The position numbers and the translations under genes were made by a program. Under the pieces are notes generated by a model that saw only the letters and a program-made list of their open reading frames with translations, was not told where the DNA came from and made no database searches. From Clostridia bacterium (GTDB taxonomy: Bacteria; Bacillota; Sulfobacillia; DUSP01), in assembly GCA_012842575.1 (NCBI GenBank), contig DUSP01000057.1, positions 1 to 44,176 on the forward strand: a DNA stretch of 44,176 bases. The letters are read 5' to 3'. Position 1 is the first letter of the stretch. Every line of letters starts with the position of its first letter. Shown one piece after another: positions 8,935 through 23,902 of the stretch.

Positions 8935-10260
8935 CTAGATATGTTTTGAATGCGGTAAATATGTCCACACCTCCCCGTACCGGCCACCACCCCCCTCTTT
9001 TACGCCATACCTCCCTGCGCGTAAGGCCATGATCGTATCCGCTACACGAACACCTGCGACTCGAGAAATGTCGTCGTGGCTCGAGCCGTGCAATACGCCG
9101 ATTTCACCCCCCAAGGCGTGCGACAAACGACTTGCGGTAACCGGACCTATGCCCGGAATCATGGAAAGCGGGACCTGGTAAATGTAAGGGGGGCGTCCCG
9201 GGGGGTGGTTCCCTTCCTCGAGGTCGGCGATTTCATCGATGCGTTCCTTGACGCCCTTTACGAAATGCGGCCTTTTAGCGCCGCAAGCAGGGCACGTTCC
9301 GTTTGCATAGGCTTGGGAGTCTAAGAATGAACCGCACTTACCGCAAACGCTCCTATGGTACTTTCCGAGCCTCGGGTCTATTCCCACATTGGCCACTTGG
9401 AACCTCATGCTCCCTCCAAACAGGCTCGATTTGACCCCCTCAAACGAAGGGAGCTCCATATAAAGTACGGTGAATTCCCGCGCGATCCTCTGTGGAGAAT
9501 GGGCGTCAGAACTTGACAAAAACGGAAATCCGTGTAATTCGCTAATCCTATCGGCCATAGTGGTATCGGCGCTCAACCCGAGCTCTAAAGCGATATGGCC
9601 CGTCGTACCCTTTCCGAAAGGGCTGTACGATCCTGGTTCTAGCATCGGCAAGAACCCATAAGCACGTTCCAGCCAAGGGGAAAGCCTCGTGCCCGCGGAC
9701 CCAAAGTATCCTTTGTACGGAGTGAAAGCATGAGCTATGGCTGAAAAACCTCCTAGGCTTTCCACCTTTCGCAAAAGCGAGCCAGGGTCGATATTCACAC
9801 GAGGAGTGCTCATATTGACGTTGGCACAATGAGGCATGAGGAACGCCGTGAATTCGCGGCACTGTACAATACCGGGGAAGAACGCGACCAAGTGAAAGGG
9901 GCGTCCGTCTTTATCGATTTCGACCTCCGCGCCGGGGATTACCAACAACTTCTTCCGCCAAAGGAGGCCTCCGCCTTCGACTTCCTTCAAGTCGCCTGCT
10001 TGTATCAGCTCGTCCAAGTCGGCGACGACCCATCGAGAGTTACAATCCACTATTCCTAGAGCATCCAAGCCCTTATCATACAGGGCCGCCTCGAGAATGC
10101 GGGGAACGGTCATGTCGCACGAAGAAGGTATCTTTACGGGCTTTCCGCACGCTTTTCCCACGTGAATGTGGAGGTCGATCCTATACTCACCCGATATGCA
10201 TTTACCCGGCCCCTCCGCGTCGGAACCATTCCCATAAGACTGCCACCAGTGTCTTCGCAT
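8935..10260 (-). CDS. Endonuclease Q family protein (PHP-like domain + Zn-ribbon + helix-hairpin-helix)
   Basis: 441 aa. The N-terminal IDLHIHVG is the metal site of a PHP-type fold. The Zn ribbon is CGKCGSF...CPACGAK. A C-terminal HhH is present (IPGIGPVTASRLSHALGGE). Its position adjacent to nudF matches the B. subtilis EndoQ homologue. Confidence 0.7.
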   Translation of the reverse strand: MRRHWWQSYGNGSDAEGPGKCISGEYRIDLHIHVGKACGKPVKIPSSCDMTVPRILEAALYDKGLDALGIVDCNSRWVVADLDELIQAGDLKEVEGGGLLWRKKLLVIPGAEVEIDKDGRPFHLVAFFPGIVQCREFTAFLMPHCANVNMSTPRVNIDPGSLLRKVESLGGFSAIAHAFTPYKGYFGSAGTRLSPWLERAYGFLPMLEPGSYSPFGKGTTGHIALELGLSADTTMADRISELHGFPFLSSSDAHSPQRIAREFTVLYMELPSFEGVKSSLFGGSMRFQVANVGIDPRLGKYHRSVCGKCGSFLDSQAYANGTCPACGAKRPHFVKGVKERIDEIADLEEGNHPPGRPPYIYQVPLSMIPGIGPVTASRLSHALGGEIGVLHGSSHDDISRVAGVRVADTIMALRAGRYGVKEGGGGRYGEVWTYLPHSKHI

Positions 10261-10873
10261 CTTTTATCCCGCCCAGACGTATCGCCTCGAGGCATTCCTT
10301 CAAAGGCACCCACCTCACGAGAATGCGCTCGTCCTCATCTTTAGCCACTTCTCCCTGCATCTTCGAAAGATCAGCCGCTCTATATACCACGAGCCTTTCA
10401 GTCATGATGCCCGGACTGGAATAAAACTCCGTAATCCTCTCCCAGGACCTGGCAGCTACACCAACTTCCTCCAAGAGTTCCCTCCTCGCCGCCACCCATG
10501 GATCTTCACCTTTGTCGATTTTTCCCGCCGGTATCTCCCAGAGGATCTCACCGGTCGGATACCTGAATTGCTTTACGAGTGCAATCCTTCCGGCGTCATC
10601 GACCGCCAAAACGGCGACAGCCCCGGGGTGGACGACGACTTCACGCACCACTTGTCGGTCGTCGGATGTAGCTGCCCTATCGACCCGTACGGAAACGATT
10701 TTCCCGGAGAAAACCGTCTTCATTTCTAGCGGGCGCTCGACGAGGTCCTCATCCAAAACCGCTTTTTCCGAAGGTTTTCCCCCATCGCCATATGGGAAAG
10801 AGCAAAAGCTGCCGTAACTACTGCGCTGCTTTTGCTCCCGTTTTTCCTCATCGCCAACTTGGAAAGAGCTCAT
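10202..10873 (-). CDS. nudF: ADP-ribose pyrophosphatase (Nudix hydrolase)
   Basis: The Nudix box is GKIDKGEDPWVAARRELLEEVGV. The N-terminal FSGKIVSVRVD...HPGAVAVLAV is typical of NudF. The track ORF runs up to 11047, but that stretch overlaps the DUF3866 gene in another frame. ATG at 10873 (MSSFQ...) has an AAGGCGGG SD and is my preferred start. Confidence 0.85.
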   Translation of the reverse strand: MSSFQVGDEEKREQKQRSSYGSFCSFPYGDGGKPSEKAVLDEDLVERPLEMKTVFSGKIVSVRVDRAATSDDRQVVREVVVHPGAVAVLAVDDAGRIALVKQFRYPTGEILWEIPAGKIDKGEDPWVAARRELLEEVGVAARSWERITEFYSSPGIMTERLVVYRAADLSKMQGEVAKDEDERILVRWVPLKECLEAIRLGGIKDAKTLVAVLWEWFRRGGAG

Positions 10874-12173
10874 TCGTGATCCCGCCTTCGTTATCCCGCC
10901 TTCTCCTTCTGGCCGCCAAGGCGAGGACGCCGGCCACGTCCCCGCACGCCGCCGCGGCCTCGAATAAAAGCGGCTCTTGTTCGTATGACCGACCCATCGA
11001 TTGTAGCTCAAACCCCATGTCTTGCAGTAACCTTGTGCCCAGGACACCGTTTCCCATAATAAACAGGTGTTTTCTGTAAAGACCCTCGCGGCGAATCGTC
11101 TCGAACACCGTATCGAGCGATGGGCGGGAGATTCGGGGCAAGCCTACGATACACGGGGGGTATACCACTTCTTTTAATACCGTAACGGTATGATGACTTA
11201 GCCCATAATGCCTCGTCCTCGTATCCGCGAAACCGATTCGCGGGACCGCTATGGGCTTCCCTCCAAGGGCAAAGGCGGCGTTGATGGCTTCACCTTGCGA
11301 TATGGCCGTCGTACCAAAGGCGGTTCCGGTACCCACAATGCCCGGTCCTATACACACCACCGCTACATCGGCCTTGCTGACATGCTTGGCGGCGATTAAG
11401 GCACTGTACACGTTTATGGCTTCCAAGTCCCCTCCGAAGGCATGCCCACATGTTATGGTAGTCCCGACCAGACCCCTTTCTTTGAGGAAGGCCACGGTTT
11501 TCGATATGGCAAGGGGTAGCGCACCGCCATCCGTCATTATGTAGGTTACCCGGGGCGTGATCCGGCGCCCCCGAAGCCGACACCATATACCGGCAACAGC
11601 GGGCGCCACTTGGCTATGGAGCTCCCCCACTATTACGGGCATGCCCTCGAGATCGGGCCTTTGCAGGGCATCACGCCGACCGGAGGCTTCTTCTTCCACT
11701 GCCAGACATCGGAACTGCAAAGGAGTATACCTGAGCTTCATGATATGCCCCTGTTCTCGTCCGGCAAACCCCGCTGTCATAACGCCGTTCGGTATCGGCA
11801 TCGTAATCCCATTTGGACATGTTGCCTGACTTGCTGCCGACGATTCCCTGGGTTGGCCTTTCCCTCGAGGAACATCGGTTTTTCGCTGCCCGGCGACATT
11901 CCCATCCAGTCCAAGGGGCCCGAGGGACTTAATTACTTGGGCGACGAAGTCGTATCCGCCACTTCCCAAACCCAAAGCCCGTGCAGTGGCATTAACCACG
12001 ACTTCATCGCCCTCACTTACTTCACCGGTCAATTTGACGAAGTTAAATGCGAGCGATTTCTCTTCTCCATAACGTACCTCAATCTCTTGTAAGTCTTGGG
12101 TTCTGCTCACTATTTCTTCAACGTACCCGCGCAACCACACTATGTCGCGCCCGCCGTATGACTCAGTCTTCAT
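10848..12173 (-). CDS. DUF3866-family protein (function unknown)
   Basis: 441 aa. The N-terminal small barrel reads EVRYGEEKSLAFNFVKLTGEVSEGDEVVVNATARALGLGSGGYDFV. It is followed by a Gly-rich alpha/beta domain (ICIGPGIVGTGTAFGTTAISQGEAINAAFALGGKPIAVPRIGFAD). This is as I remember DUF3866, with an extra low-complexity insertion. Its ATG overlaps the stop of the upstream ORF by 11 nt. Confidence 0.65.
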   Translation of the reverse strand: MKTESYGGRDIVWLRGYVEEIVSRTQDLQEIEVRYGEEKSLAFNFVKLTGEVSEGDEVVVNATARALGLGSGGYDFVAQVIKSLGPLGLDGNVAGQRKTDVPRGKGQPRESSAASQATCPNGITMPIPNGVMTAGFAGREQGHIMKLRYTPLQFRCLAVEEEASGRRDALQRPDLEGMPVIVGELHSQVAPAVAGIWCRLRGRRITPRVTYIMTDGGALPLAISKTVAFLKERGLVGTTITCGHAFGGDLEAINVYSALIAAKHVSKADVAVVCIGPGIVGTGTAFGTTAISQGEAINAAFALGGKPIAVPRIGFADTRTRHYGLSHHTVTVLKEVVYPPCIVGLPRISRPSLDTVFETIRREGLYRKHLFIMGNGVLGTRLLQDMGFELQSMGRSYEQEPLLFEAAAACGDVAGVLALAARRRRRDNEGGITNELFPSWR

Positions 12174-12960
12174 GATCTCTCGTCGCCGCTACCTCGCGTT
12201 TGTCATGCGTCATACCCAAGGACCCTTGTCGCGGATCGTCCAGTTCCTGGTGGGCAGCCTTCGGAATGGAAGTCCTCCCGGAGGCGGCTATGAGTTTCGG
12301 AAGCCTTCTGTTGACGGCGTCAAGCGTCGCCCTGACCGCTGCGTCCGCCGGATCCCTTCGTACGCAAACCGCGCCCACTAAGATTTCTTCGTTACCACGT
12401 GGCGTTATGGCAACTAATACGGCAATGGCAATATCGCGCTGCCCCACCCTTACGATACCGATATCCTCGAGGGCCAAGAGGTTTTGCGGATCGCACGCTT
12501 GACTCAAAGCGGCTACTGCAGCTCTTGAGAATATCTTAAGGGATGTGGCGGCCGATGAAGCGCCCTCGGCAGTACCTTCGTACGTCGTACTGTCGTCGTC
12601 GGATCTGCCCAAGACTACTTTCGCCTTGAGGCTTCCGCGGACGGTATCGGTGGAAACTTCAAGGCTCAGGAGCTTTAGACGAACATAAGGTAGGGGCCCC
12701 CTTATCCCGGTGAGTTGAGCAACGCTTATTTTCTTATGGTCCACGTTTAAATTCCACTTCGCGGCGAGGGAACTCTCTACGTCCCTCACTATTTGCTTGG
12801 GGCTTCTCTCGGGACCGGCAAGAATGTGTATTTCCTCAATGGCTCCCCAATCATTCACGACCACCCTGGCGGATATAACACCCGCCAAGAGCCCCAACAG
12901 GTGCTCTATTTCCTCTACAGTTACTACGCTACGGGGCTTCCCCCCTGCCTCAGCTCCCAA
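12163..12960 (-). CDS. Hypothetical protein, no family recognised (two-domain, soluble)
   Basis: 265 aa with a TTG start preceded by AGGGGGG. The composition is protein-like. The N-terminal module is VEEIEHLLGLLAGVISARVVVNDWGAIEEIHILAGPERSPKQIVRDVESSLAAKW. A second alpha/beta module ends in AAVRATLDAVNRRL. It is co-directional and translationally coupled to the DUF3866 gene. Confidence 0.55.
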   Translation of the reverse strand: MGAEAGGKPRSVVTVEEIEHLLGLLAGVISARVVVNDWGAIEEIHILAGPERSPKQIVRDVESSLAAKWNLNVDHKKISVAQLTGIRGPLPYVRLKLLSLEVSTDTVRGSLKAKVVLGRSDDDSTTYEGTAEGASSAATSLKIFSRAAVAALSQACDPQNLLALEDIGIVRVGQRDIAIAVLVAITPRGNEEILVGAVCVRRDPADAAVRATLDAVNRRLPKLIAASGRTSIPKAAHQELDDPRQGSLGMTHDKREVAATRDHED

Positions 12961-13175
12961 GCTCTGCCCCCCTAACCTATGATTTATGCCCTACAGTAAA
13001 AGCACTTACGGCAAAAACGGAACAACCCAAAATAATATCGAGATACGGCTTTTTGCGGTTAAGCGATAATATGTGGTGTCTTGAGCCGGACTCGACCTTC
13101 ATTTGGGTCCCATAAATAAGGGAAGGGGAACTCAATGAACTTTCAACGTGCAGGAATTGTCGTCCCTTTGTTTTC

Positions 13176-14060
13176 CTATTCTCGTTCCCCGTACAAATTC
13201 CTTTTGCTGGCGTTTTGTCGCCTCCGGTTTTGCCCTGCCCCTTGAATCCCTCCGAGAGCATCTACCCACCGTAACATCCGAGAACGCTCGACCAGATGTG
13301 AGACTGAGGAGACCTCGATGAGGATCTGGAACAAAAAAAGCGTCGCCAGTATGAGCGTTCTTAAACCGGGTGAAGGAGCGAGGATCAAAAGCAGACCCAG
13401 GGAGGCGCCGATGGTATTGGCGCCGGCGTCCCCCATCATCAGCCTCTCCTTTAAGTCGTATAGACCATAGGCCGCGGTGGAGGCCAAGACCGGTAGGGTG
13501 AGCATGACTCCTTCGTCCGTAACATTCCATTCCGTGAGTAGTCCGAGGCAGGTCAAGGCAAAAAGGGATGAAGCCCAATATGCCTTCAGGGCTCTTCCGG
13601 GTCTGACATCCAAGGCATTGAAGGCGTTCGTCGTCAAAGATACGATGGCAGCATTTCTCCAAAGATCAATCAGCCCTTCACTTTCCCCAAAAGCCGCTAT
13701 AAAGCTAATGAGGACTATAAAAAGGGCTTTCAAGGCCCCGGTTGAAATGTACCCCTCCAACGCCTTCGAAAAATGCCCTTTTATCCCCTTTATCCCCTTT
13801 GCTTGGCCTGTCCCGACCATATCGTCCAAAAGACCTACGAGACACACTCCGAAGAGCGTCATGCCATAAATACCGGCACGTCTGGGCTCAACCAACCCGA
13901 AGGCGAGCATAAAGGGTAAAGCGAAAGCCCATGCGAACACGAATGCCAACCCTGCTCCATAAGGCAAGACCACACCCCTATAATTGCTGCGGACCAGTCC
14001 CCCTTCCGGGAACAACCTCGCGAATACGGGCACCAAGATCCGAGTGACCAAGACGGCCAC
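13176..14060 (-). CDS. Glycosyltransferase family 4 (MraY/WecA/TagO-like polyprenyl-phosphate sugar-1-phosphate transferase)
   Basis: 294 aa with about 8-9 TM segments. Motifs seen: LLDDMVG (DD motif), NAFNALD (NxxNxxD motif) and MMGDAGANTIGASLG. Confidence 0.7.
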   Translation of the reverse strand: MAVLVTRILVPVFARLFPEGGLVRSNYRGVVLPYGAGLAFVFAWAFALPFMLAFGLVEPRRAGIYGMTLFGVCLVGLLDDMVGTGQAKGIKGIKGHFSKALEGYISTGALKALFIVLISFIAAFGESEGLIDLWRNAAIVSLTTNAFNALDVRPGRALKAYWASSLFALTCLGLLTEWNVTDEGVMLTLPVLASTAAYGLYDLKERLMMGDAGANTIGASLGLLLILAPSPGLRTLILATLFLFQILIEVSSVSHLVERSRMLRWVDALGGIQGAGQNRRRQNASKRNLYGERE

Positions 14061-14077
14061 CGCTACAGGTATGCTTA

Positions 14078-14815
14078 TTAAAATTCGGATTCCCTCCGTT
14101 TAGCGCGACCAAACAGCCTCGGAAGCGCTGCGTAACATATGTGTAAGAGCTGTATACCCCTGTGAATCAGACCACGAAGGCTCTTACCGTCTCCCGAATG
14201 CATCATATCCGTTTGTATTTCCCGTACCTTAAACCCCGCGCGGATAGCGTCTATCGTCAAGGCTATCTCAAAACCAAACCCCAAAGCGACGGTATCGAGT
14301 CGCGACCATACGGACGATTTGAACGCCCGTTGCCCCGATAACGGCCACGTTACGTCCGTGCCGGTAAGGAATTTCGTGATGCGCCGCGCTATAGCGGCGA
14401 CGAGTCCGAAACCCCCGGTACCCTCTTGGACCTTCACCCCACCTATAACCATGTCCCCTTCGTCCGCCAGCAGGCTGTTGAGAAGCCTCTCCGCTTTCTG
14501 TGCTTCGGCGCCCAGGTCGGCGTCGACCAACAAGAAGGCATCATAACCTTCCAATGAGAGACACTTCAGCGCAAGCCTCAGAGCGCCCCCTTTTCCTCGA
14601 CGGCGGGCAAGGCGCAAAACCCTGACGCCACGGGCCTGGGCTATGGCCTGGGTTTCGTCCGATGAGCCGTCATCCACAACAACGATCTCCAGGTTGCCAG
14701 GTATTCGCCTTAACGCATCTATGGTAGCTCCGATGCTCTGGGATTCGTTATGGGCCGGCACCACTGCCGCTACGGTGAAGGGAGAGTCACCAATCCGTGC
14801 CATCGCTTGGTTCAT
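14078..14815 (-). CDS. GT-A fold glycosyltransferase (family 2 / GpgS-like)
   Basis: 245 aa. Motifs seen: AAVVPAHNES, VVVDDGSSDET, LVDADL (DxD), PLSGQRAF and GFGFEIALTIDA...H. The pattern resembles glucosyl-3-phosphoglycerate-synthase-type and dolichyl-phosphate-type GT-A enzymes. Confidence 0.78.
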   Translation of the reverse strand: MNQAMARIGDSPFTVAAVVPAHNESQSIGATIDALRRIPGNLEIVVVDDGSSDETQAIAQARGVRVLRLARRRGKGGALRLALKCLSLEGYDAFLLVDADLGAEAQKAERLLNSLLADEGDMVIGGVKVQEGTGGFGLVAAIARRITKFLTGTDVTWPLSGQRAFKSSVWSRLDTVALGFGFEIALTIDAIRAGFKVREIQTDMMHSGDGKSLRGLIHRGIQLLHICYAALPRLFGRAKRRESEF

Positions 14816-15647
14816 CGCTTTGAGTATCCTGCCCTGGGTTTACCCAATACCTTCCCAATGAAAAATTCCCGGAATCTCCGTCGGCTATGAGTGCCAATGC
14901 GAGCCTGCCCGCAGGAAGATCGACACAGTCTACGCTCGATATGCCGATTTCACCTAGCCTCTTACCATCAAGCGGAAGGGCCGACACTGAGGTGGACACC
15001 ACCGCCAGCCTTATTCCTATCTCGCTTGCCAATTGCCTCACCCGAAGAAGCGTATCCATAGTGACCCCACATCGTGAAACCAGTCCGGAACCGAAGAGCA
15101 ACAAAACGGGTCGTCCTTGGCCAAGACTTTCGCGAATGCCAAGAGCCATGCGATTCAGGTCCACTTTCTCCGGAAGCGGTGTAAAGACCTGGGGTGTTTG
15201 GGTACCCCCTTCCTCGCGAAACTGTGTAAGGACCTTTACCACAGCAATCAGTCGCTTGTCGTCAAGTCCTGAGTCATCGGGAAAAAGAGCCATAAACTCG
15301 TGGGAGAGCCCTAGCTTGGATAACACTTCATCTTCGAATTCACCGTCCAAGGCCAAAAGAAACAAGCGCTGCTCTCCGGAGTACTTCTTCACAGCCCGGG
15401 AGATCACCGTTTCGTCCAGTCCTATGAGGGTCTTCAGGTTTTCCCGCATCAACTTCGTTTGCCTTGAGGCAGCCTTGATTTCCATCATCAAGTTGTCGAC
15501 ATCTTGTTCGAGCCTTGCCACCATCTTCTCCTGGGCTTCTTGAAGCGTATCCCCGCCCACGACGATTGATCCGACGAAAATTCCAACCCCCAAAGCCAAA
15601 AAAACCGCAATCAACGATATGATGTGCGTCTTTATGTCGATGATCAA
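14787..15647 (-). CDS. steB: SteB / MctB-family membrane-anchored protein ('copper transporter' family)
   Basis: The N-terminus LIIDIKTHIISLIAVFLALGVGIFVG closely parallels the mycobacterial MctB N-terminus (MISLRQHAVSLAAVFLALAMGVVLG), and a coiled-coil follows. The track start is 15701. I prefer TTG at 15647, which forms a TTGA overlap with the steA stop and has a GGAGGG SD 8 nt upstream. Confidence 0.75.
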   Translation of the reverse strand: MIIDIKTHIISLIAVFLALGVGIFVGSIVVGGDTLQEAQEKMVARLEQDVDNLMMEIKAASRQTKLMRENLKTLIGLDETVISRAVKKYSGEQRLFLLALDGEFEDEVLSKLGLSHEFMALFPDDSGLDDKRLIAVVKVLTQFREEGGTQTPQVFTPLPEKVDLNRMALGIRESLGQGRPVLLLFGSGLVSRCGVTMDTLLRVRQLASEIGIRLAVVSTSVSALPLDGKRLGEIGISSVDCVDLPAGRLALALIADGDSGNFSLGRYWVNPGQDTQSDEPSDGTDW

Positions 15648-16771
15648 TGGAGGAACCCTCCGAGTCCGACCTTCATCCTGAGACATAAAAGGCGTAAACA
15701 TGTCTGAGTCAAAGGGGAAGCCGTCGCCGCCACTAGTAGAGCCAGGAGCGCACCCGCCACGATCTCGAGAACATGGGCGGGGCGAACTCTCGCAGCATAA
15801 ATTCGGCTGACTCCCTTCGCATCCACCAAGATCGGCCCCACCTTTATCCTCGTCAAGAGCGTACTGGCCATTCCCGCTCTTCCTTTTTCGAGGAAGTCGG
15901 TCATGCTGTTATGCGTCCCGACGGCGACGATCAGGCACGCTCCGGCCTCGAATGCGAGCATCAAGGCTAAGTCTTCGCTGGTGCCGGCGGCCGGAATGAC
16001 ATGAACCTCGACACCGAGGTTCTTCACGCGTTCCAGGCCGGGGGCGCGTCCGTCAGGGTAAGCGTGGACCACCACCTCTGCTCCACACTTTAGGGCTTTA
16101 TCGCTCACGCTATCCATGTCCCCGACGATCATATCCGGCTTCAACCCGAGTTCCAAGATTGCATCGGCGCCACCGTCCACCCCTATAAGTATTGGCCGGG
16201 CTTCTTTAATGTACGGCCTAATGGTGTCGAGATCTTCCTTATACGTCCTCCCTCTGATCACCACCAGGACGTGCTTGCCCTTTATGGGCGTACGGATGGG
16301 TAAAGGTCCAAGGCCTGATACGAGGCGGTGCTTTTCCAAATTGGCAAAGGTGAGGGTATTATCGATGAATTCAAGCAGTGCGTCTTTTACATTTCTTTCC
16401 GCTATGCGAGCGGCTTTCTCGACATCGTCTGGGCCTATGAGTTTCCCCGAAGCGACTACCATACCGTCGACGATGACTTTCCCCGACCTTATCTCAGCCG
16501 TGGTACCGTCCGCAATATCGAGAACTTCTTCTCCGGCCTCGTCAATGAGGGGGACGTCTGCGTTTACGAGTATTCTTGGGCCGTCGTTAACGTACCTGGG
16601 CGAGAACGAAGAGGATACGTTTATGACGGCTTTGACGCCTTTACTCAAGAGCGCACGCGCCGATACCTCGTCAAGCGCAGGGTGATCGATGACGGCGATA
16701 TCCCCCGGCTTAAGCGTCCGAACAAGGTCTTTCGTGCGACGCCCTATTCTGATGCGACCGCGAACTCTCAT
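15644..16771 (-). CDS. steA: SteA-family protein (thiamine-pyrophosphokinase-like domain + C-terminal TM)
   Basis: 375 aa. The N-terminus RIGRRTKDLVRTLKPGDIAVIDHPALDEVSARALL resembles actinobacterial SteA (RTKNL...L.PGDIAVIDH.DLD). The central domain is TPK-like (GVDGGAD...IVGDMDS) and the C-terminus is hydrophobic. A GAGGAG SD lies 7 nt upstream of the ATG. Confidence 0.75.
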   Translation of the reverse strand: MRVRGRIRIGRRTKDLVRTLKPGDIAVIDHPALDEVSARALLSKGVKAVINVSSSFSPRYVNDGPRILVNADVPLIDEAGEEVLDIADGTTAEIRSGKVIVDGMVVASGKLIGPDDVEKAARIAERNVKDALLEFIDNTLTFANLEKHRLVSGLGPLPIRTPIKGKHVLVVIRGRTYKEDLDTIRPYIKEARPILIGVDGGADAILELGLKPDMIVGDMDSVSDKALKCGAEVVVHAYPDGRAPGLERVKNLGVEVHVIPAAGTSEDLALMLAFEAGACLIVAVGTHNSMTDFLEKGRAGMASTLLTRIKVGPILVDAKGVSRIYAARVRPAHVLEIVAGALLALLVAATASPLTQTCLRLLCLRMKVGLGGFLH

Positions 16772-16812: not shown

Positions 16813-16844
16813 AAAAATACAAAGGTTGGATACTTCATCCAACC
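16813..16844 (-). terminator. Strong intrinsic terminator after spo0A
   Basis: The minus strand reads GGTTGGAT-gaagt-ATCCAACC, a perfect 8-bp stem (16824-16831/16837-16844), followed by TTTGTATTTTT. Confidence 0.8.
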
Positions 16845-16929
16845 TTCACGCAAAGGCGAAAACCACATAAGCGATTCCGAACGAAAAAGTCATTGTGCCT
16901 TACAACTTGGCCTTACCATAAAACCCACT

Positions 16930-17703
16930 TTATCTCGCCATTACCGACCAAGAACCAAGTCTCAGCCGGTCTGCAACCATCGCTATGAACTCCGAGTTGG
17001 TCGGTTTGCCCTTCTCCTGATTTACCGTGTGCCCAAAGATTTCATTGATGATATCAAGGTTCCCCCTGTTCCACGCGACTTCGATGGCATGCCGTATGGC
17101 CCGTTCCACCCTGCTCGGGGTGGTCTTGTATTTCATCGCTATTAACGGATACAATTCCTTGGTAATGGCACCCAAGAGCTCCACTCTTTCGACGACCATC
17201 ATTATAGCATCGCGCAGATATAGGTAACCTTTTATGTGCGCCGGGATGCCGATTTCGTGAATTGCCCGTGTGACTTCCTGGCTCAGATCTCGATGGCCCT
17301 TCGAGGCGGCTTTTGGGCTGGGATTGATGTTGTCGCTCCCTACCAGTTCGCGAACCCTTTTTCCCAGAATTTCTAAGTCGAAGGGCTTTAAGATATAGTA
17401 ATCCGCTCCTAAACGCGCCGCTTGCTGTGCGACTGTTTCTTGACCGAAGGCACTCAAAACCATGATCTTTGGCCGATGGCTGATACCCGATATTTTTTCC
17501 AAAACTCCGATTCCATCGATTTGAGGCATGATTATATCGAGTATGAGGACGTCCGGATTCAACCGGTTTACCAAGTCGATGGTTTCCGGCCCATTGGACG
17601 CAAACCCCACGGGCTCCATATCGTCCTGAGATGCCAAATATTCTTTTAATATGTCACGAAATTCGCGATTGTCATCGGCAACCAATACTCTAATTTTATC
17701 CAC
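16930..17703 (-). CDS. spo0A: Sporulation master response regulator Spo0A
   Basis: The receiver domain has [12 protein letters not shown]...[14 protein letters not shown]. The C-terminal Spo0A-specific DNA-binding domain has [12 protein letters not shown]...[32 protein letters not shown]. The track start is TTG at 17739. GTG at 17703 is preceded by AAAAAGGAGGAAAGGCCT, a consensus SD at 6-7 nt, and is preferred (257 aa). Confidence 0.95.
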
Positions 17704-17739
17704 AGGCCTTTCCTCCTTTTTGTCATTGGCAGAAAACAA

Positions 17740-19592: not shown

Positions 19593-21317
19593 TTACGTCC
19601 CTTGCGCCCTCTGAAGCATCTCCCTGGCGTGCTCTAACACCGCAGGGCTAGGGTCGACCGTCCCGAGCATCCGAGCGATTTCGAGTACACGCTCCTCGCC
19701 GGTCACCTCCTTGACATCGGTAACGGTACGACCATCCTTGACATTTTTTGAAACGCAAAAGTGCGTAGATGCATTGACCGCAATGGGCGCAAGGTGCGTA
19801 ACACATATCACCTGATGGCGACCGGCTATCGCCCGAAGCCTTTCTGAAACGGCCACCGCCGTGGTTCCGCCTATACCCGCATCGACCTCGTCGAATATCA
19901 CGGTGGGAACATCGTCGGAGGATGCGGCGATAGACCGGATGGTGAGCATCACTCTGGACAGTTCGCCCCCAGAAGCGATTTTCGAGAGGGGGCGCTCGGG
20001 TTCGCCCGCATTGGCGGAGAATAAAAACTCGATTCTCTCAAGGCCCCGGGGGCCTAAAGCCACTCGCCTGCCCTCAAGGTCCACTCCGTCCTCATCATCC
20101 TTATACGAGACGGAGACGGTGAATGAAGCATCTGGCATGCCCAATGAAGACAGGCCGGACTTGACTTTCGCCTCAAAGTCGGGTATCAGCCCTCTCCTGA
20201 TGCGAGAAAGGGCAAGGGTTGCGCCTATCAGCTCTTCTTTCAATTCTTTCCGCTTTTTCGCCAGCGCGTCGATGTTTTCGGTGGCCTCCTCGAGCGACCT
20301 GATCTCTTCGGTAATGCTATCGGCGTAAGCGAGCACTTCCTCGAGAGTTCCTCCGTATTTGCGTTTCAGGGCTTTCAGAGTATCGATCCTCTGCCTAACT
20401 TGGTCGGCCCTCTCGGCACTGAAATCAATGGTCTCGAGTCGCTTTCTCATGGCGCTTGCCGCTTCTTGAAGCACCAAGGAGGCTTCGCTTAGGTCCTTGT
20501 AAAGCGGTAAAAAGCCCTCGTCTACGGAAGCGGCCACCTCAAGGTCTCTACGGGCCTCCACGACCAGGTCGTACGCCGACCTACCGACGGAATCACCGTA
20601 GATGAGCGAGTAGCAATGCGCAACGGCAGTCCTAAGCCTCTCCGCGTTGGCCAATATGGCCTCTTCCTTTCGGAGATCTTCTTCTTCTCCAGGGGAGATA
20701 CCGGCCTTTCTGATCTCGTCGAGCTCAAACCTAAGTATGTCAAGCCTTTTTTGCCGCTCTTTGGCGTTACTCGACAGCCCCGACAGATCCCTCTCAACGG
20801 CGGACAGCTCCACCCACAGGCGGGCAACCTTTTGTCGCAGTTCCCATACCATTTGTCCGCCCAAGGAATCGAGGATATCGATGTGCCGCTCGGGTTTCAG
20901 TAGAGATTGGTGGTCGTGCTGACCGTGGATGTCGACGAGCCTCTCGCCGATTTCCCGACAAAGGGACGAAGGGACCAGTTTTCCGTTCAGCCTCGTGGAG
21001 GAGCGGCCCTGCCGAGGGATTTCGCGGCTGAAAACCACGATGGGTTCCTGACCATCCTCAATGATCCCAAGCTCGAGGAGTTGTGCGATTACCTCCGCTT
21101 GGCGCCCGACGTCGAATACCGCGTCGATCCTCGCTTTCTCGGCTCCGGATCTTACTTGGTCTTGGGATGCCTTTCCGCCTAACGCGGCTTCCACCGCTTC
21201 GACCACAATGGATTTGCCGGCTCCCGTCTCACCCGTGAATACCGTAAGCCCTTCTCTGAATTGGAGCCTTAGCGCGTCTATTATGGCGAAATCCTTTATT
21301 TCCAGCTCGACGAGCAC
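19593..21317 (-). CDS. recN: DNA repair protein RecN (SMC-like ATPase)
   Basis: 574 aa. The Walker A is FTGETGAGKSIVVEA. A long coiled-coil is present, with the signature and Walker B near the C-terminus (ASGGELSRVMLT...TVIFDEVDAGIGG). Confidence 0.95.
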   Translation of the reverse strand: MLVELEIKDFAIIDALRLQFREGLTVFTGETGAGKSIVVEAVEAALGGKASQDQVRSGAEKARIDAVFDVGRQAEVIAQLLELGIIEDGQEPIVVFSREIPRQGRSSTRLNGKLVPSSLCREIGERLVDIHGQHDHQSLLKPERHIDILDSLGGQMVWELRQKVARLWVELSAVERDLSGLSSNAKERQKRLDILRFELDEIRKAGISPGEEEDLRKEEAILANAERLRTAVAHCYSLIYGDSVGRSAYDLVVEARRDLEVAASVDEGFLPLYKDLSEASLVLQEAASAMRKRLETIDFSAERADQVRQRIDTLKALKRKYGGTLEEVLAYADSITEEIRSLEEATENIDALAKKRKELKEELIGATLALSRIRRGLIPDFEAKVKSGLSSLGMPDASFTVSVSYKDDEDGVDLEGRRVALGPRGLERIEFLFSANAGEPERPLSKIASGGELSRVMLTIRSIAASSDDVPTVIFDEVDAGIGGTTAVAVSERLRAIAGRHQVICVTHLAPIAVNASTHFCVSKNVKDGRTVTDVKEVTGEERVLEIARMLGTVDPSPAVLEHAREMLQRAQGT

Positions 21318-22999: not shown

Positions 23000-23902
23000 C
23001 TATTCACGAGCGGATTTAACCTCTTCGTCTTCGAAAAACCGGGTCGCAATGGACACCACCTGGGCGGCCCAGTCTTTCTCGCCCGCGCCGTCTCCAGCCA
23101 CACTCGCTGCCGGCCGGACGCCGGGTTTTACCTCCCCCCGCACCTCAGCCAGCCCCCCAACAGTCGCCACCGACTCTAGCGGCTTTACGAAATGGAACCA
23201 GAATTCCATATTCCCCTTAGAGCCCTTAATCGGCGAAAAGGTCACTTGAATGGGGATCAGGCTGCTTTCAGACCCGTACGATGCCACCTTTTTGAGCACT
23301 GACCTTTGGACACAAGGATCCCTGACGATACCGCCTCTGGGTACCTGACCTCGACCCGCTTCAAACTGAGGCTTTACGAGGGCGAGTATATCTCCCCCCG
23401 GACGCGTTACATCGCTAGCAGGCCCGAGAATATGCTTCAGGGATATAAATGACACGTCGATGGTGACGACATCGACATATTCTCCGATGATCTGGAGTGT
23501 CAGGTGCCTCGCGTTGGTCCTTTCCTTTACGATGACCCTCGGGTCCGTCCTGAGTGACCACGCGAGCTGCCCGTAACCCACGTCCACTGCGTATACCTTC
23601 TTTGCTCCCCTTGACAAGAGGCAATCCGTGAAGCCGCCGGTAGACGCTCCTATGTCGAGGGCTACTTTGCCGTCTACTCTCAATTCGAAGGTGTCCAACG
23701 CCCACTCAAGCTTAAGGCCCCCACGACCCACGTAAGGCAACGGGTCTTCCCTGACGAAGATCTCGGAGTCCTCACGCACCCGTTGTCCCGGCTTTACGGC
23801 TTTAGCGCCGTCCACAAATACCGCACCCTCGACTATGGCCGCCTGCGCTCGTTCCCGGCTGGGAAACAGCCCGCGTTTCACCAGGAGGATATCCAATCTC
23901 AT
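23000..23902 (-). CDS. tlyA: TlyA-family rRNA (cytidine-2'-O)-methyltransferase (S4 + FtsJ domains)
   Basis: 300 aa. The S4 N-terminus is MRLDILLVKRGLFPSRERAQAAI and the SAM motif is ALDIGASTGGFTDCLL. Its ATG overlaps the dxs TGA (ATGA). A roughly 35-aa C-terminal extension is present. Confidence 0.9.
   Translation of the reverse strand: MRLDILLVKRGLFPSRERAQAAIVEGAVFVDGAKAVKPGQRVREDSEIFVREDPLPYVGRGGLKLEWALDTFELRVDGKVALDIGASTGGFTDCLLSRGAKKVYAVDVGYGQLAWSLRTDPRVIVKERTNARHLTLQIIGEYVDVVTIDVSFISLKHILGPASDVTRPGGDILALVKPQFEAGRGQVPRGGIVRDPCVQRSVLKKVASYGSESSLIPIQVTFSPIKGSKGNMEFWFHFVKPLESVATVGGLAEVRGEVKPGVRPAASVAGDGAGEKDWAAQVVSIATRFFEDEEVKSARE

What the first reader, a model, noticed from the sequence alone, without database searches (positions are those of the whole stretch)
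10848..16771. steA-steB cell-division pair directly downstream of spo0A, extended by a GT-A / GT4 / unknown / DUF3866 module
Seen: after the strong spo0A terminator there is a tightly coupled run of steA (15644..16771), steB/mctB-like (TTGA overlap), a GT-A glycosyltransferase (overlapping steB), and an MraY/WecA-type polyprenyl-phosphate transferase (17-nt gap). A 265-aa unrecognised protein, DUF3866 (11-nt overlap) and then nudF follow.
Established knowledge: SteA/SteB were described in Corynebacterineae as cell-separation factors. In Mycobacterium the order is tlyA-ppnK(nadK)-recN-steA homologue-mctB-pyrG-nudix-xerD.
Inference: the same backbone, tlyA-nadK-(argR)-recN-(spoIVB-spo0A)-steA-steB-...-nudix-...-xerD, is visible here in a spore-former. 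This suggests a very deep synteny across Actinomycetota and Bacillota. At the position where mycobacteria carry pyrG, this genome carries a membrane-glycoconjugate-type gene set plus two proteins of unknown function. That is a plausible uncharacterised envelope or septum-associated module, and it sits next to the sporulation master regulator.
Basis: partly seen in the sequence, partly recalled or inferred. Interest (0 to 1): 0.6.

Follow-up and report, generated by a model that had tools for sequence, protein, structure and literature searches.

The report
SteAB cell-division operon with lipid-sugar enzymes
The genes after spo0A are this bacterium's copy of an ancient co-inherited set: the SteA-SteB cell-separation complex, two enzymes that probably build a lipid-linked sugar, and DUF3866; the set is essential but unexplained in Clostridioides difficile, and the tuberculosis-type bacteria in which SteAB was studied have lost most of it.

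Summary
On the minus strand, a strong spo0A terminator is followed by steA, steB, a GT2 glycosyltransferase, a short MraY/WecA-superfamily (PNPT-like) membrane protein, a 215-nt gap, an unrecognised 265-aa gene, DUF3866 and a Nudix gene.

- steA-steB-GT2-PNPT is an almost invariant cassette in 60 other families of the window's phylum.
- In that phylum DUF3866 was found in 56 of 56 SteA-positive genomes and 0 of 55 SteA-negative genomes.
- In 201 Actinomycetota genomes, SteA, DUF3866 and the PNPT-like gene were all present in 93 and all absent in 97. SteA alone was found in 7, all of the Mycobacteriales type.
- The gene order tlyA-nadK-recN-steA-steB-GT2-PNPT-(pyrG)-DUF3866-nudix-xerD also occurs in Rubrobacter. 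The mycobacterial SteAB locus is therefore a reduced form, and its SteA has a degenerate kinase-like motif.
- The 265-aa gene is a lineage-specific backbone gene and not part of the module.
- The position next to spo0A looks incidental.

By annotation, the C. difficile counterpart is the essential cluster cdr20291_1053-1057, whose function is unknown. This scan had already flagged the same module in at least 10 other genomes. The biochemistry remains inferred.

The parts
16819..16849 (-). Intrinsic terminator of spo0A, about 48 nt upstream of the steA start
   Evidence: 14-pair stem, 3-nt loop and a T-rich tail. It separates spo0A transcription from the module.
15644..16771 (-). steA: a cytoplasmic protein with a thiamine-pyrophosphokinase-like domain and a C-terminal membrane helix
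   Evidence: NF040608 474.7 bits (cut-off 150); PF12555 and PF04263 also match. E 1.9e-63 to SteA structures 9hmy and 9hmz. Hydrophobic segment at residues 334-352. Motif VDGGAD...PD...GDMDS is intact.
14787..15647 (-). steB (MctB family): N-terminal membrane helix, coiled coil and extracytoplasmic domain. The TTG start overlaps the steA stop (TTGA).
   Evidence: PF11382 59.6 bits on the N-terminus. The orthologue profile A1 hits MctB/SteB structures 9m9z, 9hle and 8au6 at E 5e-16 to 4e-14 over positions 48-282. One membrane helix at residues 30-48 of the long ORF.
14078..14815 (-). Soluble GT-A (GT2) glycosyltransferase of the Dpm1/AglJ/PpgS/GpgS-like kind. It overlaps the 3' end of steB.
   Evidence: PF00535 83.6 bits. 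Best NCBIfam hits, all below cut-off, are AglJ, GpgS and PpgS. The nearest solved structures are GpgS and DPMS. DDGSSD and DAD motifs are visible in the sequence. No membrane segment.
13176..14060 (-). Short, divergent polyprenyl-phosphate sugar-phosphate transferase-like membrane protein (MraY/WecA superfamily, Pfam Glycos_transf_4)
   Evidence: PF00953 27.3 bits against a cut-off of 27. Profile A4 hits MraY structures at E 9e-8. Invariant in 59 orthologues: D79-D80, N145, N148, D151, P154, R156, G210-D211, G213, N215. It forms a distinct subfamily: 192-313 bits against 48 bits or less for other paralogues.
12961..13175 (-). 215-nt untranslated spacer between the PNPT-like gene and the 265-aa gene
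   Evidence: No ORF, no Rfam match and no consensus promoter or terminator. It marks the boundary between the four-gene cassette and the downstream genes.
12163..12960 (-). 265-aa conserved hypothetical protein: a lineage-specific backbone gene that is not part of the module
   Evidence: No Pfam, NCBIfam or PDB sequence match. 707 homologues, mostly in Bacillota MAGs and in Sulfobacillus. Found in only 3 of 61 steA loci. In Sulfobacillus it lies between spo0A and hfq-nudix with no steAB or DUF3866. The AF2 model (pLDDT 86.9) shows an N-terminal alpha/beta domain plus tandem beta-beta-beta-alpha units like the LeuA regulatory domain.
10848..12173 (-). DUF3866: a cytoplasmic, enzyme-like protein and the fifth co-inherited member of the module
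   Evidence: PF12982 373.9 bits. 36 invariant residues in 30 orthologues, including GHIMKLRYTPxQ, LHS, YxMTDGGALP, GHAFGG, GPGxVGTG, RxRHxGxSHHT and TMGR. The AF2 model (pLDDT 81.6) shows an OB-like N-domain plus a Rossmann-like domain, with only weak resemblance to SIMIBI NTPases (TM about 0.3) and no P-loop.
11757..11927 (-). In-frame insert of about 50 codons, of low complexity, inside DUF3866; unique to this genome
   Evidence: Absent from all 29 aligned orthologues. pLDDT is about 30-36 over model residues 77-133.
10202..11047 (-). Nudix hydrolase (ADP-ribose/NudF-like): a backbone gene that follows DUF3866 in both phyla
   Evidence: PF00293 76.8 bits. The domain starts at residue 141 of the longest ORF, so the true start is probably near 10723. 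The gene is retained in Mycobacterium and in Sulfobacillus, which lack the full module.

Best explanation
The region holds one copy of an ancient module of five co-inherited genes for the cell envelope and cell division: steA, steB, a soluble GT-A (GT2) glycosyltransferase, a short MraY/WecA-superfamily (PNPT-like) membrane transferase, and DUF3866.

Shown here:
- The five genes are adjacent or near each other in about 60 families of the window's phylum and in many Actinomycetota.
- They are gained and lost together.
- SteA and SteB are true homologues of the structurally solved SteAB trans-membrane complex.
- The PNPT-like protein keeps the catalytic Asp motifs of its superfamily.
- SteA keeps an intact thiamine-pyrophosphokinase-like motif.

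From the literature:
- SteAB forms a septal trans-membrane complex that controls daughter-cell separation.
- C. glutamicum SteA is stabilised by UDP or GDP, and its pocket is predicted to bind carbohydrate.
- Knock-down of the C. difficile cluster directly after spo0A gives chains of short, swollen cells, and all five genes are essential by Tn-seq.

Inferred mechanism:
- The PNPT-like enzyme and GT2 build a polyprenyl-(pyro)phosphate-linked saccharide at the inner face of the membrane.
- SteA, anchored beside them, binds or modifies the nucleotide-sugar or lipid-linked intermediate through its kinase-like pocket.
- SteB couples this to events outside the membrane, namely septal wall remodelling and cell separation.
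- DUF3866 is a cytoplasmic, phosphate-ligand-binding enzyme of the same pathway.

Other points:
- The 265-aa gene and the Nudix gene are neighbours on a conserved backbone, not members of the module.
- Adjacency to spo0A is historical.
- Mycobacteriales kept only SteAB, with a degenerate SteA motif, and use it to position RipA.
For: Families.

Adjacency in the window's phylum (61 loci: the window plus 60 others, one per family):
- steB follows steA in 53 of 61 loci.
- GT2 is present in 60 of 61 and the PNPT-like gene in 60 of 61.
- DUF3866 lies within 14 kb in 31 of 61.

Phyletic pattern in the window's phylum:
- DUF3866 was found in the other 25 of 25 SteA-positive genomes tested and in 0 of 55 SteA-negative genomes. 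Some of those SteA-negative genomes belong to families that also have positive members (f17, f35, f42, f75).
- The PNPT-like subfamily scores above 190 bits in 10 of 10 SteA-positive and 1 of 55 SteA-negative genomes.

Actinomycetota:
- Of 201 genomes, 93 have SteA, DUF3866 and the PNPT-like gene, 97 have none, and 7 have SteA only.
- The gene order is the same, and one of these loci is Rubrobacter xylanophilus.

No sign of recent transfer: in the SteA tree the window's phylum forms one side of a branch with SH-aLRT 99.

Mycobacteriales:
- They lack GT2, the PNPT-like gene and DUF3866.
- They sit on a long SteA branch.
- Their motif is degenerate: VGxGAD..PQ..GDPdQ against VDGGAD..PD..GDMDS, which is at least 90% conserved in the other 99 rows.

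Independent hint of lipid-linked glycan chemistry: in two actinobacterial loci a MurJ-family flippase and a GT-B glycosyltransferase lie between steB and DUF3866.

Literature:
- PMC12977500.
- PMC12157513.
- CDR20291_1052 is spo0A (PMC5311115).
Against: - No biochemical activity is shown for any of the five proteins, here or in the literature found.
- The PNPT-like protein is short (294 aa). It carries DLRPGR where MraY and WecA have DGxDGL, and it barely passes the Pfam threshold.
- GT2 could act on a soluble acceptor, since its nearest solved relative is GpgS.
- One complete genome (G058) keeps GT2 and the PNPT-like gene after spo0A but lacks steAB and DUF3866. The two halves can therefore be separated.
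- DUF3866 is often tens to hundreds of kb away from steA.
- The C. difficile knock-down phenotypes may reflect polarity within an operon.
- The match to cdr20291_1053-1057 rests on published annotation, gene sizes and position, not on a sequence alignment made here.
- Genomes in the phyletic counts are related, so the counts overstate the number of independent events.
Confidence: 0.6

Rival explanations
1. Two independent systems share a neighbourhood. SteAB works here just as in Mycobacteriales, as a trans-membrane activator of a cell-separation hydrolase. GT2, the PNPT-like enzyme and DUF3866 belong to a separate wall-polymer or glycolipid pathway that merely shares an operon.
For: - G058 keeps GT2 and the PNPT-like gene without steAB or DUF3866.
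- Mycobacteriales keep SteAB without the other three.
- steB can move elsewhere in the genome while steA-GT2-PNPT-DUF3866 stay together.
Against: - In 201 Actinomycetota genomes the three markers are all present or all absent in 190.
- In the window's phylum DUF3866 follows SteA in 56 of 56 positive and 0 of 55 negative genomes.
- The genes overlap or are closely spaced.
- No NlpC/P60 (RipA-type) hydrolase was found in this 92.8%-complete genome or in the 97%-complete relative G132.
- SteA lost its conserved motif exactly where the partner genes were lost.
Confidence: 0.2
2. The module is a sporulation function controlled by or serving Spo0A, for example asymmetric septation, engulfment or the spore envelope. 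The literature suggests this from its position directly after spo0A.
For: - spo0A lies directly upstream in about 50 of 61 loci.
- PMC12977500 raises this possibility.
- spoIVB and spoIIM lie in the same neighbourhood.
Against: - A strong terminator separates spo0A from steA.
- The same module in the same backbone position occurs in Actinomycetota, which have no spo0A and where recN is directly followed by steA.
- 11 of 61 loci have no spo0A within 4.8 kb upstream.
- The C. difficile cluster is essential for vegetative growth (PMC12157513).
- B. subtilis sporulates without SteA or DUF3866 (control genomes).
Confidence: 0.07
3. The arrangement is only frozen gene order on an old housekeeping backbone (tlyA-nadK-recN ... 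nudix-xerD), with no functional link among the five genes.
For: Flanking housekeeping genes with unrelated functions (tlyA, nadK, recN, pyrG, nudix, xerD, deoB) keep the same order across two phyla.
Against: - Backbone genes such as nudix, xerD and recN persist in genomes that lack the module.
- The five module genes disappear together.
- DUF3866 still co-occurs with SteA when it lies far away on the chromosome.
Confidence: 0.05

Closest known systems
SteA-SteB (Rv1697-Rv1698/MctB in M. tuberculosis; Cg1603-Cg1604 in C. glutamicum), the regulator of RipA/RipC-dependent cell separation (PMC6705760, PMC12977500)
   Same: - SteA and SteB are homologous over their full lengths.
- The genes are adjacent and translationally coupled.
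- SteA has a C-terminal membrane helix, and SteB has an N-terminal helix, a coiled coil and an ectodomain.
- The backbone position after recN and before nudix-xerD is the same.
   Different: - Here SteAB comes with GT2, a PNPT-like enzyme and DUF3866, which Mycobacteriales lack genome-wide.
- SteA here keeps the VDGGAD..GDMDS motif that is degenerate in Mycobacteriales.
- No NlpC/P60 partner was found in this genome.
- spoIVB-spo0A lie between recN and steA.
[quoted passage not shown]
   Same: - It lies directly downstream of spo0A, which is CDR20291_1052 (PMC5311115).
- The order, annotations and sizes match: pyrophosphokinase 373 aa, exported protein 291 aa, family 2 glycosyltransferase 230 aa, glycosyl transferase family protein 274 aa, DUF3866 355 aa. 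Typical orthologue lengths here are about 373, 290-300, 228, 262-274 and 360 aa.
- Knock-down gives chaining and short, swollen cells.
   Different: - The window has a 215-nt gap and an extra 265-aa gene between the PNPT-like gene and DUF3866.
- Its DUF3866 carries an insert of about 50 aa.
- The paper does not identify the first two genes as SteA and SteB.
- Orthology was not checked here at the sequence level.
MraY, WecA and TagO (polyprenyl-phosphate N-acetylhexosamine-1-phosphate transferase superfamily, Pfam PF00953)
   Same: - Polytopic membrane protein.
- Conserved DD, NxxNxxD and GDxGS(N) motifs.
- The profile matches MraY structures over about 210 positions.
   Different: - It is about 260-290 aa long, against 320-370 aa.
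- DLRPGR replaces DGxDGL.
- It is a separate subfamily that coexists with the ordinary MraY/TagO paralogues (48 bits or less to the subfamily profile) and occurs almost only in SteA-positive genomes.
Dpm1, AglJ, PpgS and GtrB-type polyprenyl-phosphate glycosyltransferases, and GpgS (GT-A fold)
   Same: - GT-A catalytic domain with DDGS.D and DxD motifs.
- Best family and structure hits are to AglJ, GpgS, PpgS and DPMS.
- It has no membrane segment, like human DPM1 (this comparison is from my own knowledge).
   Different: - All hits are far below the family cut-offs.
- Donor and acceptor are unknown.
- It is much shorter than GpgS or GtrB.

Membership tests
SteA (NCBIfam NF040608, putative cytokinetic ring protein) | Full-length match above the curated cut-off | tested here: met
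   474.7 bits against a cut-off of 150, covering residues 3-367 of 375.
SteA (NCBIfam NF040608, putative cytokinetic ring protein) | Homology to the solved SteA cytoplasmic core | tested here: met
   E 1.9e-63 to 9hmy and 6.9e-50 to 9hmz over residues 5-328.
SteA (NCBIfam NF040608, putative cytokinetic ring protein) | C-terminal membrane anchor (SteA-like_C) and an adjacent steB gene | tested here: met
   PF12555 38.9 bits. Hydrophobic segment at residues 334-352. The steB start overlaps the steA stop.
SteA (NCBIfam NF040608, putative cytokinetic ring protein) | Septal localisation and a role in cell separation | not testable with these tools
   This needs microscopy and genetics. Only the published C. 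difficile knock-down phenotype bears on it (PMC12157513).
SteB / MctB (Pfam PF11382) | Pfam match above threshold, and homology of the ectodomain to the solved SteB structure | tested here: met
   The single sequence scores 59.6 bits, but only on profile positions 1-93. The profile of 53 orthologues matches 9m9z, 9hle and 8au6 over positions 48-282 at E 5e-16 to 4e-14. The clostridial profile also finds mycobacterial SteB at 4.4e-26.
SteB / MctB (Pfam PF11382) | A RipA-type (coiled-coil plus NlpC/P60) hydrolase partner encoded in the genome | tested here: not met
   No PF00877 match in G000 (92.8% complete) or in G132 (97% complete). Matches were found in relatives G007, G054 and G247. Because the genome is incomplete, this is a weak negative.
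PNPT superfamily (MraY/WecA, Pfam PF00953) | Family match and catalytic Asp motifs (DD, NxxNxxD, GDxGS) | tested here: met
   27.3 bits against a cut-off of 27, which is borderline. The orthologue profile hits MraY structures at E 9e-8. D79-D80, N145, N148, D151 and D211 are invariant in 59 sequences.
PNPT superfamily (MraY/WecA, Pfam PF00953) | Canonical DGxDGL motif and a full set of 10-11 membrane helices | tested here: not met
   The motif reads DLRPGR (window: DVRPGR) and is invariant in the subfamily. The protein has 294 aa, and a crude hydropathy scan finds only 4 strong segments. It is best treated as a divergent subfamily, not as an MraY or WecA orthologue.
PNPT superfamily (MraY/WecA, Pfam PF00953) | Transfer of a sugar-1-phosphate to polyprenyl phosphate | not testable with these tools
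   This needs a membrane enzyme assay.
GT2 (Pfam PF00535) | GT-A domain match and DxD motif | tested here: met
   83.6 bits against a cut-off of 23.3. VVDDGSSD and LVDADL are visible in the translation.
DUF3866 (Pfam PF12982) | Family match above threshold | tested here: met
   373.9 bits, in two stretches because of an insert of about 50 aa.
C. difficile essential cluster cdr20291_1053-1057 | Same five families, in the same order, directly after spo0A | tested here: inconclusive
   The match rests on published annotation, sizes and locus-tag order. No C. difficile sequence was aligned here.

The most novel reading that the evidence does not exclude
- In lineages that carry the full module, SteA is an active enzyme of the thiamine-pyrophosphokinase / MptE / CstII kind. 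It phosphorylates, pyrophosphorylates or glycosylates a polyprenyl-linked saccharide made by the PNPT-like enzyme and GT2, with DUF3866 as a further enzyme of the pathway.
- The product is a still undescribed, essential lipid-linked envelope precursor or signal. Through SteB it licenses septal wall cleavage.
- The SteAB of Mycobacteriales, the only ones studied so far, are then a derived remnant with a pseudo-enzyme SteA that was rewired to RipA.
Probability: 0.25. Interest if true: 0.85.

Novelty: new variant of a known kind. Interest (0 to 1): 0.62.

Why it matters
- SteAB has been studied only in Mycobacteriales, and its SteA ligand is unknown.
- C. difficile has an essential five-gene cluster with a division phenotype and no assigned pathway.
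- The evidence here ties the two together. The usual, probably ancestral form of the SteAB system includes a lipid-carrier transferase, a glycosyltransferase and DUF3866, across Clostridia and Actinomycetota. The model organisms represent a stripped-down form.
- This gives concrete hypotheses: SteA binds or acts on a UDP- or GDP-sugar or on a lipid-linked sugar, and DUF3866 is an enzyme of the same pathway.
- It also points to tractable non-pathogenic organisms for testing them.
- Because the C. difficile cluster is essential, the module is also a candidate target for narrow-spectrum antibacterials.

Tried and rejected
- Frameshift in the PNPT-like gene: I first suspected that ORF 12977..13261 carried a displaced C-terminus. 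It has no family match, orthologues are also only 255-290 aa long, and the 215-nt stretch is simply non-coding.
- The 265-aa protein as a module member: rejected. It occurs in only 3 of 61 loci and is present in Sulfobacillus without the module. Fold search gave only LeuA-regulatory-domain and ribosomal-S5-like resemblance at low TM scores.
- DUF3866 function from structure: there are no sequence hits in the PDB. Foldseek gave only weak SIMIBI-NTPase-like matches (TM about 0.3), and the protein has no Walker A motif. No function could be assigned.
- Structured RNA in the spacers: no Rfam match at E 0.1 or better.
- Consensus promoter scan: no more sites than in shuffled sequence.
- Recent horizontal transfer between the two phyla: rejected, because the phyla separate cleanly in the SteA tree.
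- Relocated steB: its neighbourhood (coaE, an SLT-like gene) might hint at a lytic-transglycosylase partner. It reflects a single relocation event in one clade, so it carries little weight.

Full report
**Observation**

The window's genes run on the minus strand. ORF listing and profile searches give this order:
- dxs (23899..25833), tlyA, nadK, argR, recN (19593..21317), spoIVB and spo0A (16930..17739)
- steA (15644..16771)
- steB (14787..15647 with the TTG start, or 15701 with the upstream ATG)
- a GT2 glycosyltransferase (14078..14815)
- a Glycos_transf_4 (MraY/WecA-superfamily, here called PNPT-like) membrane protein (13176..14060)
- a 215-nt gap
- a 265-aa ORF (12163..12960)
- DUF3866 (10848..12173)
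- a Nudix hydrolase, a PHP-domain TIGR00375 protein, spoIIM, ald, xerD and deoB

A terminator with a 14-bp stem lies between spo0A and steA.

**Family membership**

- SteA scores 474.7 bits against NF040608 (cut-off 150). It aligns to the two solved SteA cores, 9hmy and 9hmz, at E 1.9e-63 and 6.9e-50.
- SteB matches Pfam MctB only over its N-terminal part. A profile of 53 orthologues matches the solved MctB/SteB ectodomains (9m9z, 9hle, 8au6) over positions 48-282 at E 5e-16. The same clostridial profile finds mycobacterial SteB.
- The GT2 protein is a soluble GT-A enzyme with DDGSSD and DAD motifs. Its nearest families are AglJ, GpgS and PpgS, and its nearest structures are GpgS and DPMS, all below the family cut-offs.
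- The PNPT-like protein barely passes Pfam (27.3 bits against 27). A profile of 59 orthologues matches MraY structures at E 9e-8. The superfamily's DD, NxxNxxD and GDxGS(N) motifs are invariant, while DGxDGL is replaced by DLRPGR.
- DUF3866 scores 373.9 bits.

**Is the downstream set linked to steAB?**

SteA is above cut-off in 153 of 251 genomes of the window's phylum. I fetched 20-kb stretches around steA from 60 genomes, one per family. I scanned them, together with the window (61 loci in all), using iteratively built profiles.
- GT2 and the PNPT-like gene follow steA in 60 of 61 loci.
- steB follows steA in 53 of 61 loci.
- In one clade steB is missing from that position, but it is present elsewhere in 4 of 5 genomes checked.
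- spo0A lies upstream in about 50 of 61 loci.
- DUF3866 lies within 14 kb downstream in 31 of 61 loci. In 13 it directly abuts the PNPT-like gene. In several others a single M20-peptidase gene lies between them.

The phyletic pattern is sharper than the adjacency.
- DUF3866 was found somewhere in all 25 further SteA-positive genomes tested and in none of 55 SteA-negative genomes.
- Some of those SteA-negative genomes belong to families that also contain positive members, namely f17, f35, f42 and f75.
- The PNPT-like subfamily scores 192-313 bits in SteA-positive genomes and 48 bits or less (ordinary MraY/TagO paralogues) in SteA-negative ones.
- There is one exception, G058. Its locus reads recN-spo0A-GT2-PNPT-nudix, without steAB or DUF3866.

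**The cross-phylum claim**

Using the SteA sequence printed from the PDB alignment, I fetched 80 Mycobacterium loci. None has GT2, the PNPT-like gene or DUF3866.

Centring on one of those genomes, I sampled 201 Actinomycetota genomes:

| Pattern | Genomes |
|---|---|
| SteA present | 102 |
| DUF3866 present | 96 |
| PNPT-like subfamily present | 96 |
| All three present | 93 |
| None present | 97 |
| SteA only (includes the Mycobacterium genome) | 7 |
| Two of the three | 4 |

Two of the SteA-only genomes cluster with Mycobacterium in the SteA tree.

Forty actinobacterial loci, chosen mostly where SteA and DUF3866 shared a contig, typically read dxs-tlyA-nadK-recN-steA-steB-GT2-PNPT-[pyrG, with or without an M20 peptidase]-DUF3866-nudix-xerD-deoB. 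One of them is Rubrobacter xylanophilus DSM 9941, and the others are Actinomycetota MAGs.

Mycobacteriales are the reduced state, so the glycosyltransferase set does not stand in for pyrG.

In a tree of 106 SteA sequences, the window's phylum forms one side of a branch (SH-aLRT 99), which argues against recent exchange between the phyla. The Mycobacteriales sit on a long branch of 1.65 changes per site.

The thiamine-pyrophosphokinase-like motif VDGGAD..PD..GDMDS is at least 90% conserved in the 61 rows of the window's phylum and in 38 other actinobacterial rows. In 82 Mycobacteriales-type rows it reads VGxGAD..PQ..GDPdQ.

**The two unknown proteins**

DUF3866:
- It has 36 invariant residues in 30 orthologues.
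- The AlphaFold model is confident (pLDDT 81.6). It shows an OB-like N-terminal domain and a Rossmann-like domain.
- The Rossmann-like domain only weakly resembles SIMIBI NTPases (TM about 0.3), and the protein has no P-loop. It looks like an enzyme that binds a phosphorylated ligand, but no function can be assigned.
- The window's copy carries a unique disordered insert of about 50 residues.

The 265-aa protein:
- It belongs to a family of at least 707 proteins, mostly from Bacillota MAGs.
- It occurs in only 3 of the 61 loci.
- In Sulfobacillus thermotolerans it lies between spo0A and hfq-nudix-spoIIM with no steAB or DUF3866.
- Its model (pLDDT 86.9) resembles the LeuA regulatory domain.
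- It is a lineage-specific backbone gene and not part of the module.

**Literature**

- Carloni et al. (mBio 2026, PMC12977500) solved the SteA and SteB structures and showed a trans-membrane complex that positions RipA.
  - They noted that steAB also occurs in Clostridia directly downstream of spo0A.
  - They found that the SteA pocket resembles the nucleotide sites of TPK and CstII, is predicted to bind carbohydrate, and that C. glutamicum SteA is stabilised by UDP or GDP.
  - The paper does not mention glycosyltransferases.
  - Knock-down gives chaining and short, swollen, phase-bright cells.
  - The paper does not mention SteA.
- CDR20291_1052 is spo0A (PMC5311115).
- By position, order, annotation and size, that cluster is the C. 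difficile copy of this module. I did not align the sequences.
- No paper in the library links SteA/SteB with these glycosyltransferases.

**Mechanism**

Co-inheritance, homology and motif conservation are shown.

The following steps are inferred:
- The PNPT-like enzyme and GT2 make a polyprenyl-linked saccharide.
- SteA binds or modifies a nucleotide-sugar or that intermediate through its intact kinase-like pocket.
- SteB transmits to the outside, for septal wall remodelling.
- DUF3866 is a further cytoplasmic enzyme of the pathway.

Supporting hints:
- C. glutamicum SteA responds to UDP and GDP.
- Two actinobacterial loci carry a MurJ-family flippase and a GT-B glycosyltransferase between steB and DUF3866.
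- No NlpC/P60 (RipA-type) protein was found in this genome (92.8% complete) or in the relative G132.

Cautions:
- There is no biochemistry for any of the five proteins.
- G058 shows that the glycosyltransferase pair can persist alone.
- CRISPRi polarity may affect the published phenotypes.
- Related genomes inflate the counts.

**The spo0A link**

A sporulation-specific role is unlikely, for four reasons:
- A terminator follows spo0A.
- In Actinomycetota the module is in the same place and recN directly precedes steA.
- The C. difficile cluster is essential in vegetative cells.
- B. subtilis sporulates without SteA or DUF3866 (control genomes).

The simplest reading is that spoIVB-spo0A lie between recN and steA on an older shared backbone.

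**Relation to earlier scan notes**

After my own analysis I found that this scan had already flagged the same five-gene module in at least 10 other genomes, with similar conclusions.

- the three-way all-or-none pattern in Actinomycetota;
- the Rubrobacter locus;
- the degenerate SteA motif and long branch in Mycobacteriales;
- the exclusion of the 265-aa gene from the module.

**Verdict**

- The window's copy is an ordinary member of the module, with two small peculiarities: the extra 265-aa gene and the DUF3866 insert.
- The module itself is under-described, essential in at least one pathogen, and changes how SteAB should be viewed.

Noticed in passing
window 11757-11927 (minus strand, inside DUF3866): An in-frame, low-complexity insert of about 50 codons, between the OB-like domain and the Rossmann-like domain, is absent from all 29 aligned orthologues. 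It is predicted to be disordered (pLDDT about 30).
   Followed up: partly
window 12163-12960; L062 8001-8723 (Sulfobacillus thermotolerans): The 265-aa protein belongs to a conserved family with no Pfam model (at least 707 homologues). It has a very conserved N-terminal motif (VVVNDWGAIEEIHIL...PKQIVRDVES) and a C-terminal part resembling the LeuA regulatory domain. In Sulfobacillus it lies between spo0A/gdh and hfq-nudix-spoIIM.
   Followed up: partly
L005, L012, L046, L057 (window's phylum); L146, L151 (Actinomycetota): An M20/M42-type metallopeptidase gene (about 370 aa) recurs between the PNPT-like gene and DUF3866 in both phyla. It could be a sixth, facultative member of the neighbourhood.
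   Followed up: partly
L159 and L168 (Actinomycetota, G259 and G347): In L159, a MurJ-family flippase (211 bits) and a GT-B group-1 glycosyltransferase lie between steB and DUF3866, in place of GT2 and the PNPT-like gene. L168 has the same gap but its ORFs were not scanned. In both genomes the PNPT-like gene sits about 6 kb beyond DUF3866.
   Followed up: partly
L064 (G058, complete genome, same family f17 as SteA-positive genomes): The locus reads dxs-tlyA-nadK-argR-recN-spo0A-GT2-PNPT-[1.2 kb]-nudix. steA, steB and spoIVB are missing from it, DUF3866 was not found anywhere in the genome, and only a weak SteA-profile hit (E 3.8e-7) exists genome-wide. This is the only case found in which the glycosyltransferase pair survives without SteAB.
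   Followed up: partly
L185-L188 (G116, G151, G143, G047): In the clade whose steA is followed directly by GT2, steB has moved to another locus. By N-terminal sequence motifs alone (no profile search), the genes just upstream look like coaE and a small membrane-anchored lytic-transglycosylase (SLT-like) gene. This reflects one relocation event, so it is only a weak hint of a partner.
   Followed up: partly
whole genome G000, and G132: No NlpC/P60 (PF00877) domain was found in the window's genome (92.8% complete) or in a 97%-complete relative of the same class, although both carry steAB.
   Followed up: partly
window 10202-11047: The longest Nudix ORF starts about 100 codons upstream of the Nudix domain and overlaps DUF3866 by 200 nt. 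The real start is probably near 10723, which leaves a gap of about 125 nt after DUF3866.
   Followed up: no
L026 (G092:C31:301918-302907): The SteA match stops at profile position 330 with a TAA, so the protein would lack the C-terminal membrane helix. No steB was found in that 99%-complete genome. The SteAB half may be decaying there.
   Followed up: no
window 8935-10260: A PHP-domain protein (TIGR00375 family, 207 bits, below cut-off) follows the Nudix gene here and in 8 of the other 60 clostridial loci. Its function is unknown.
   Followed up: no
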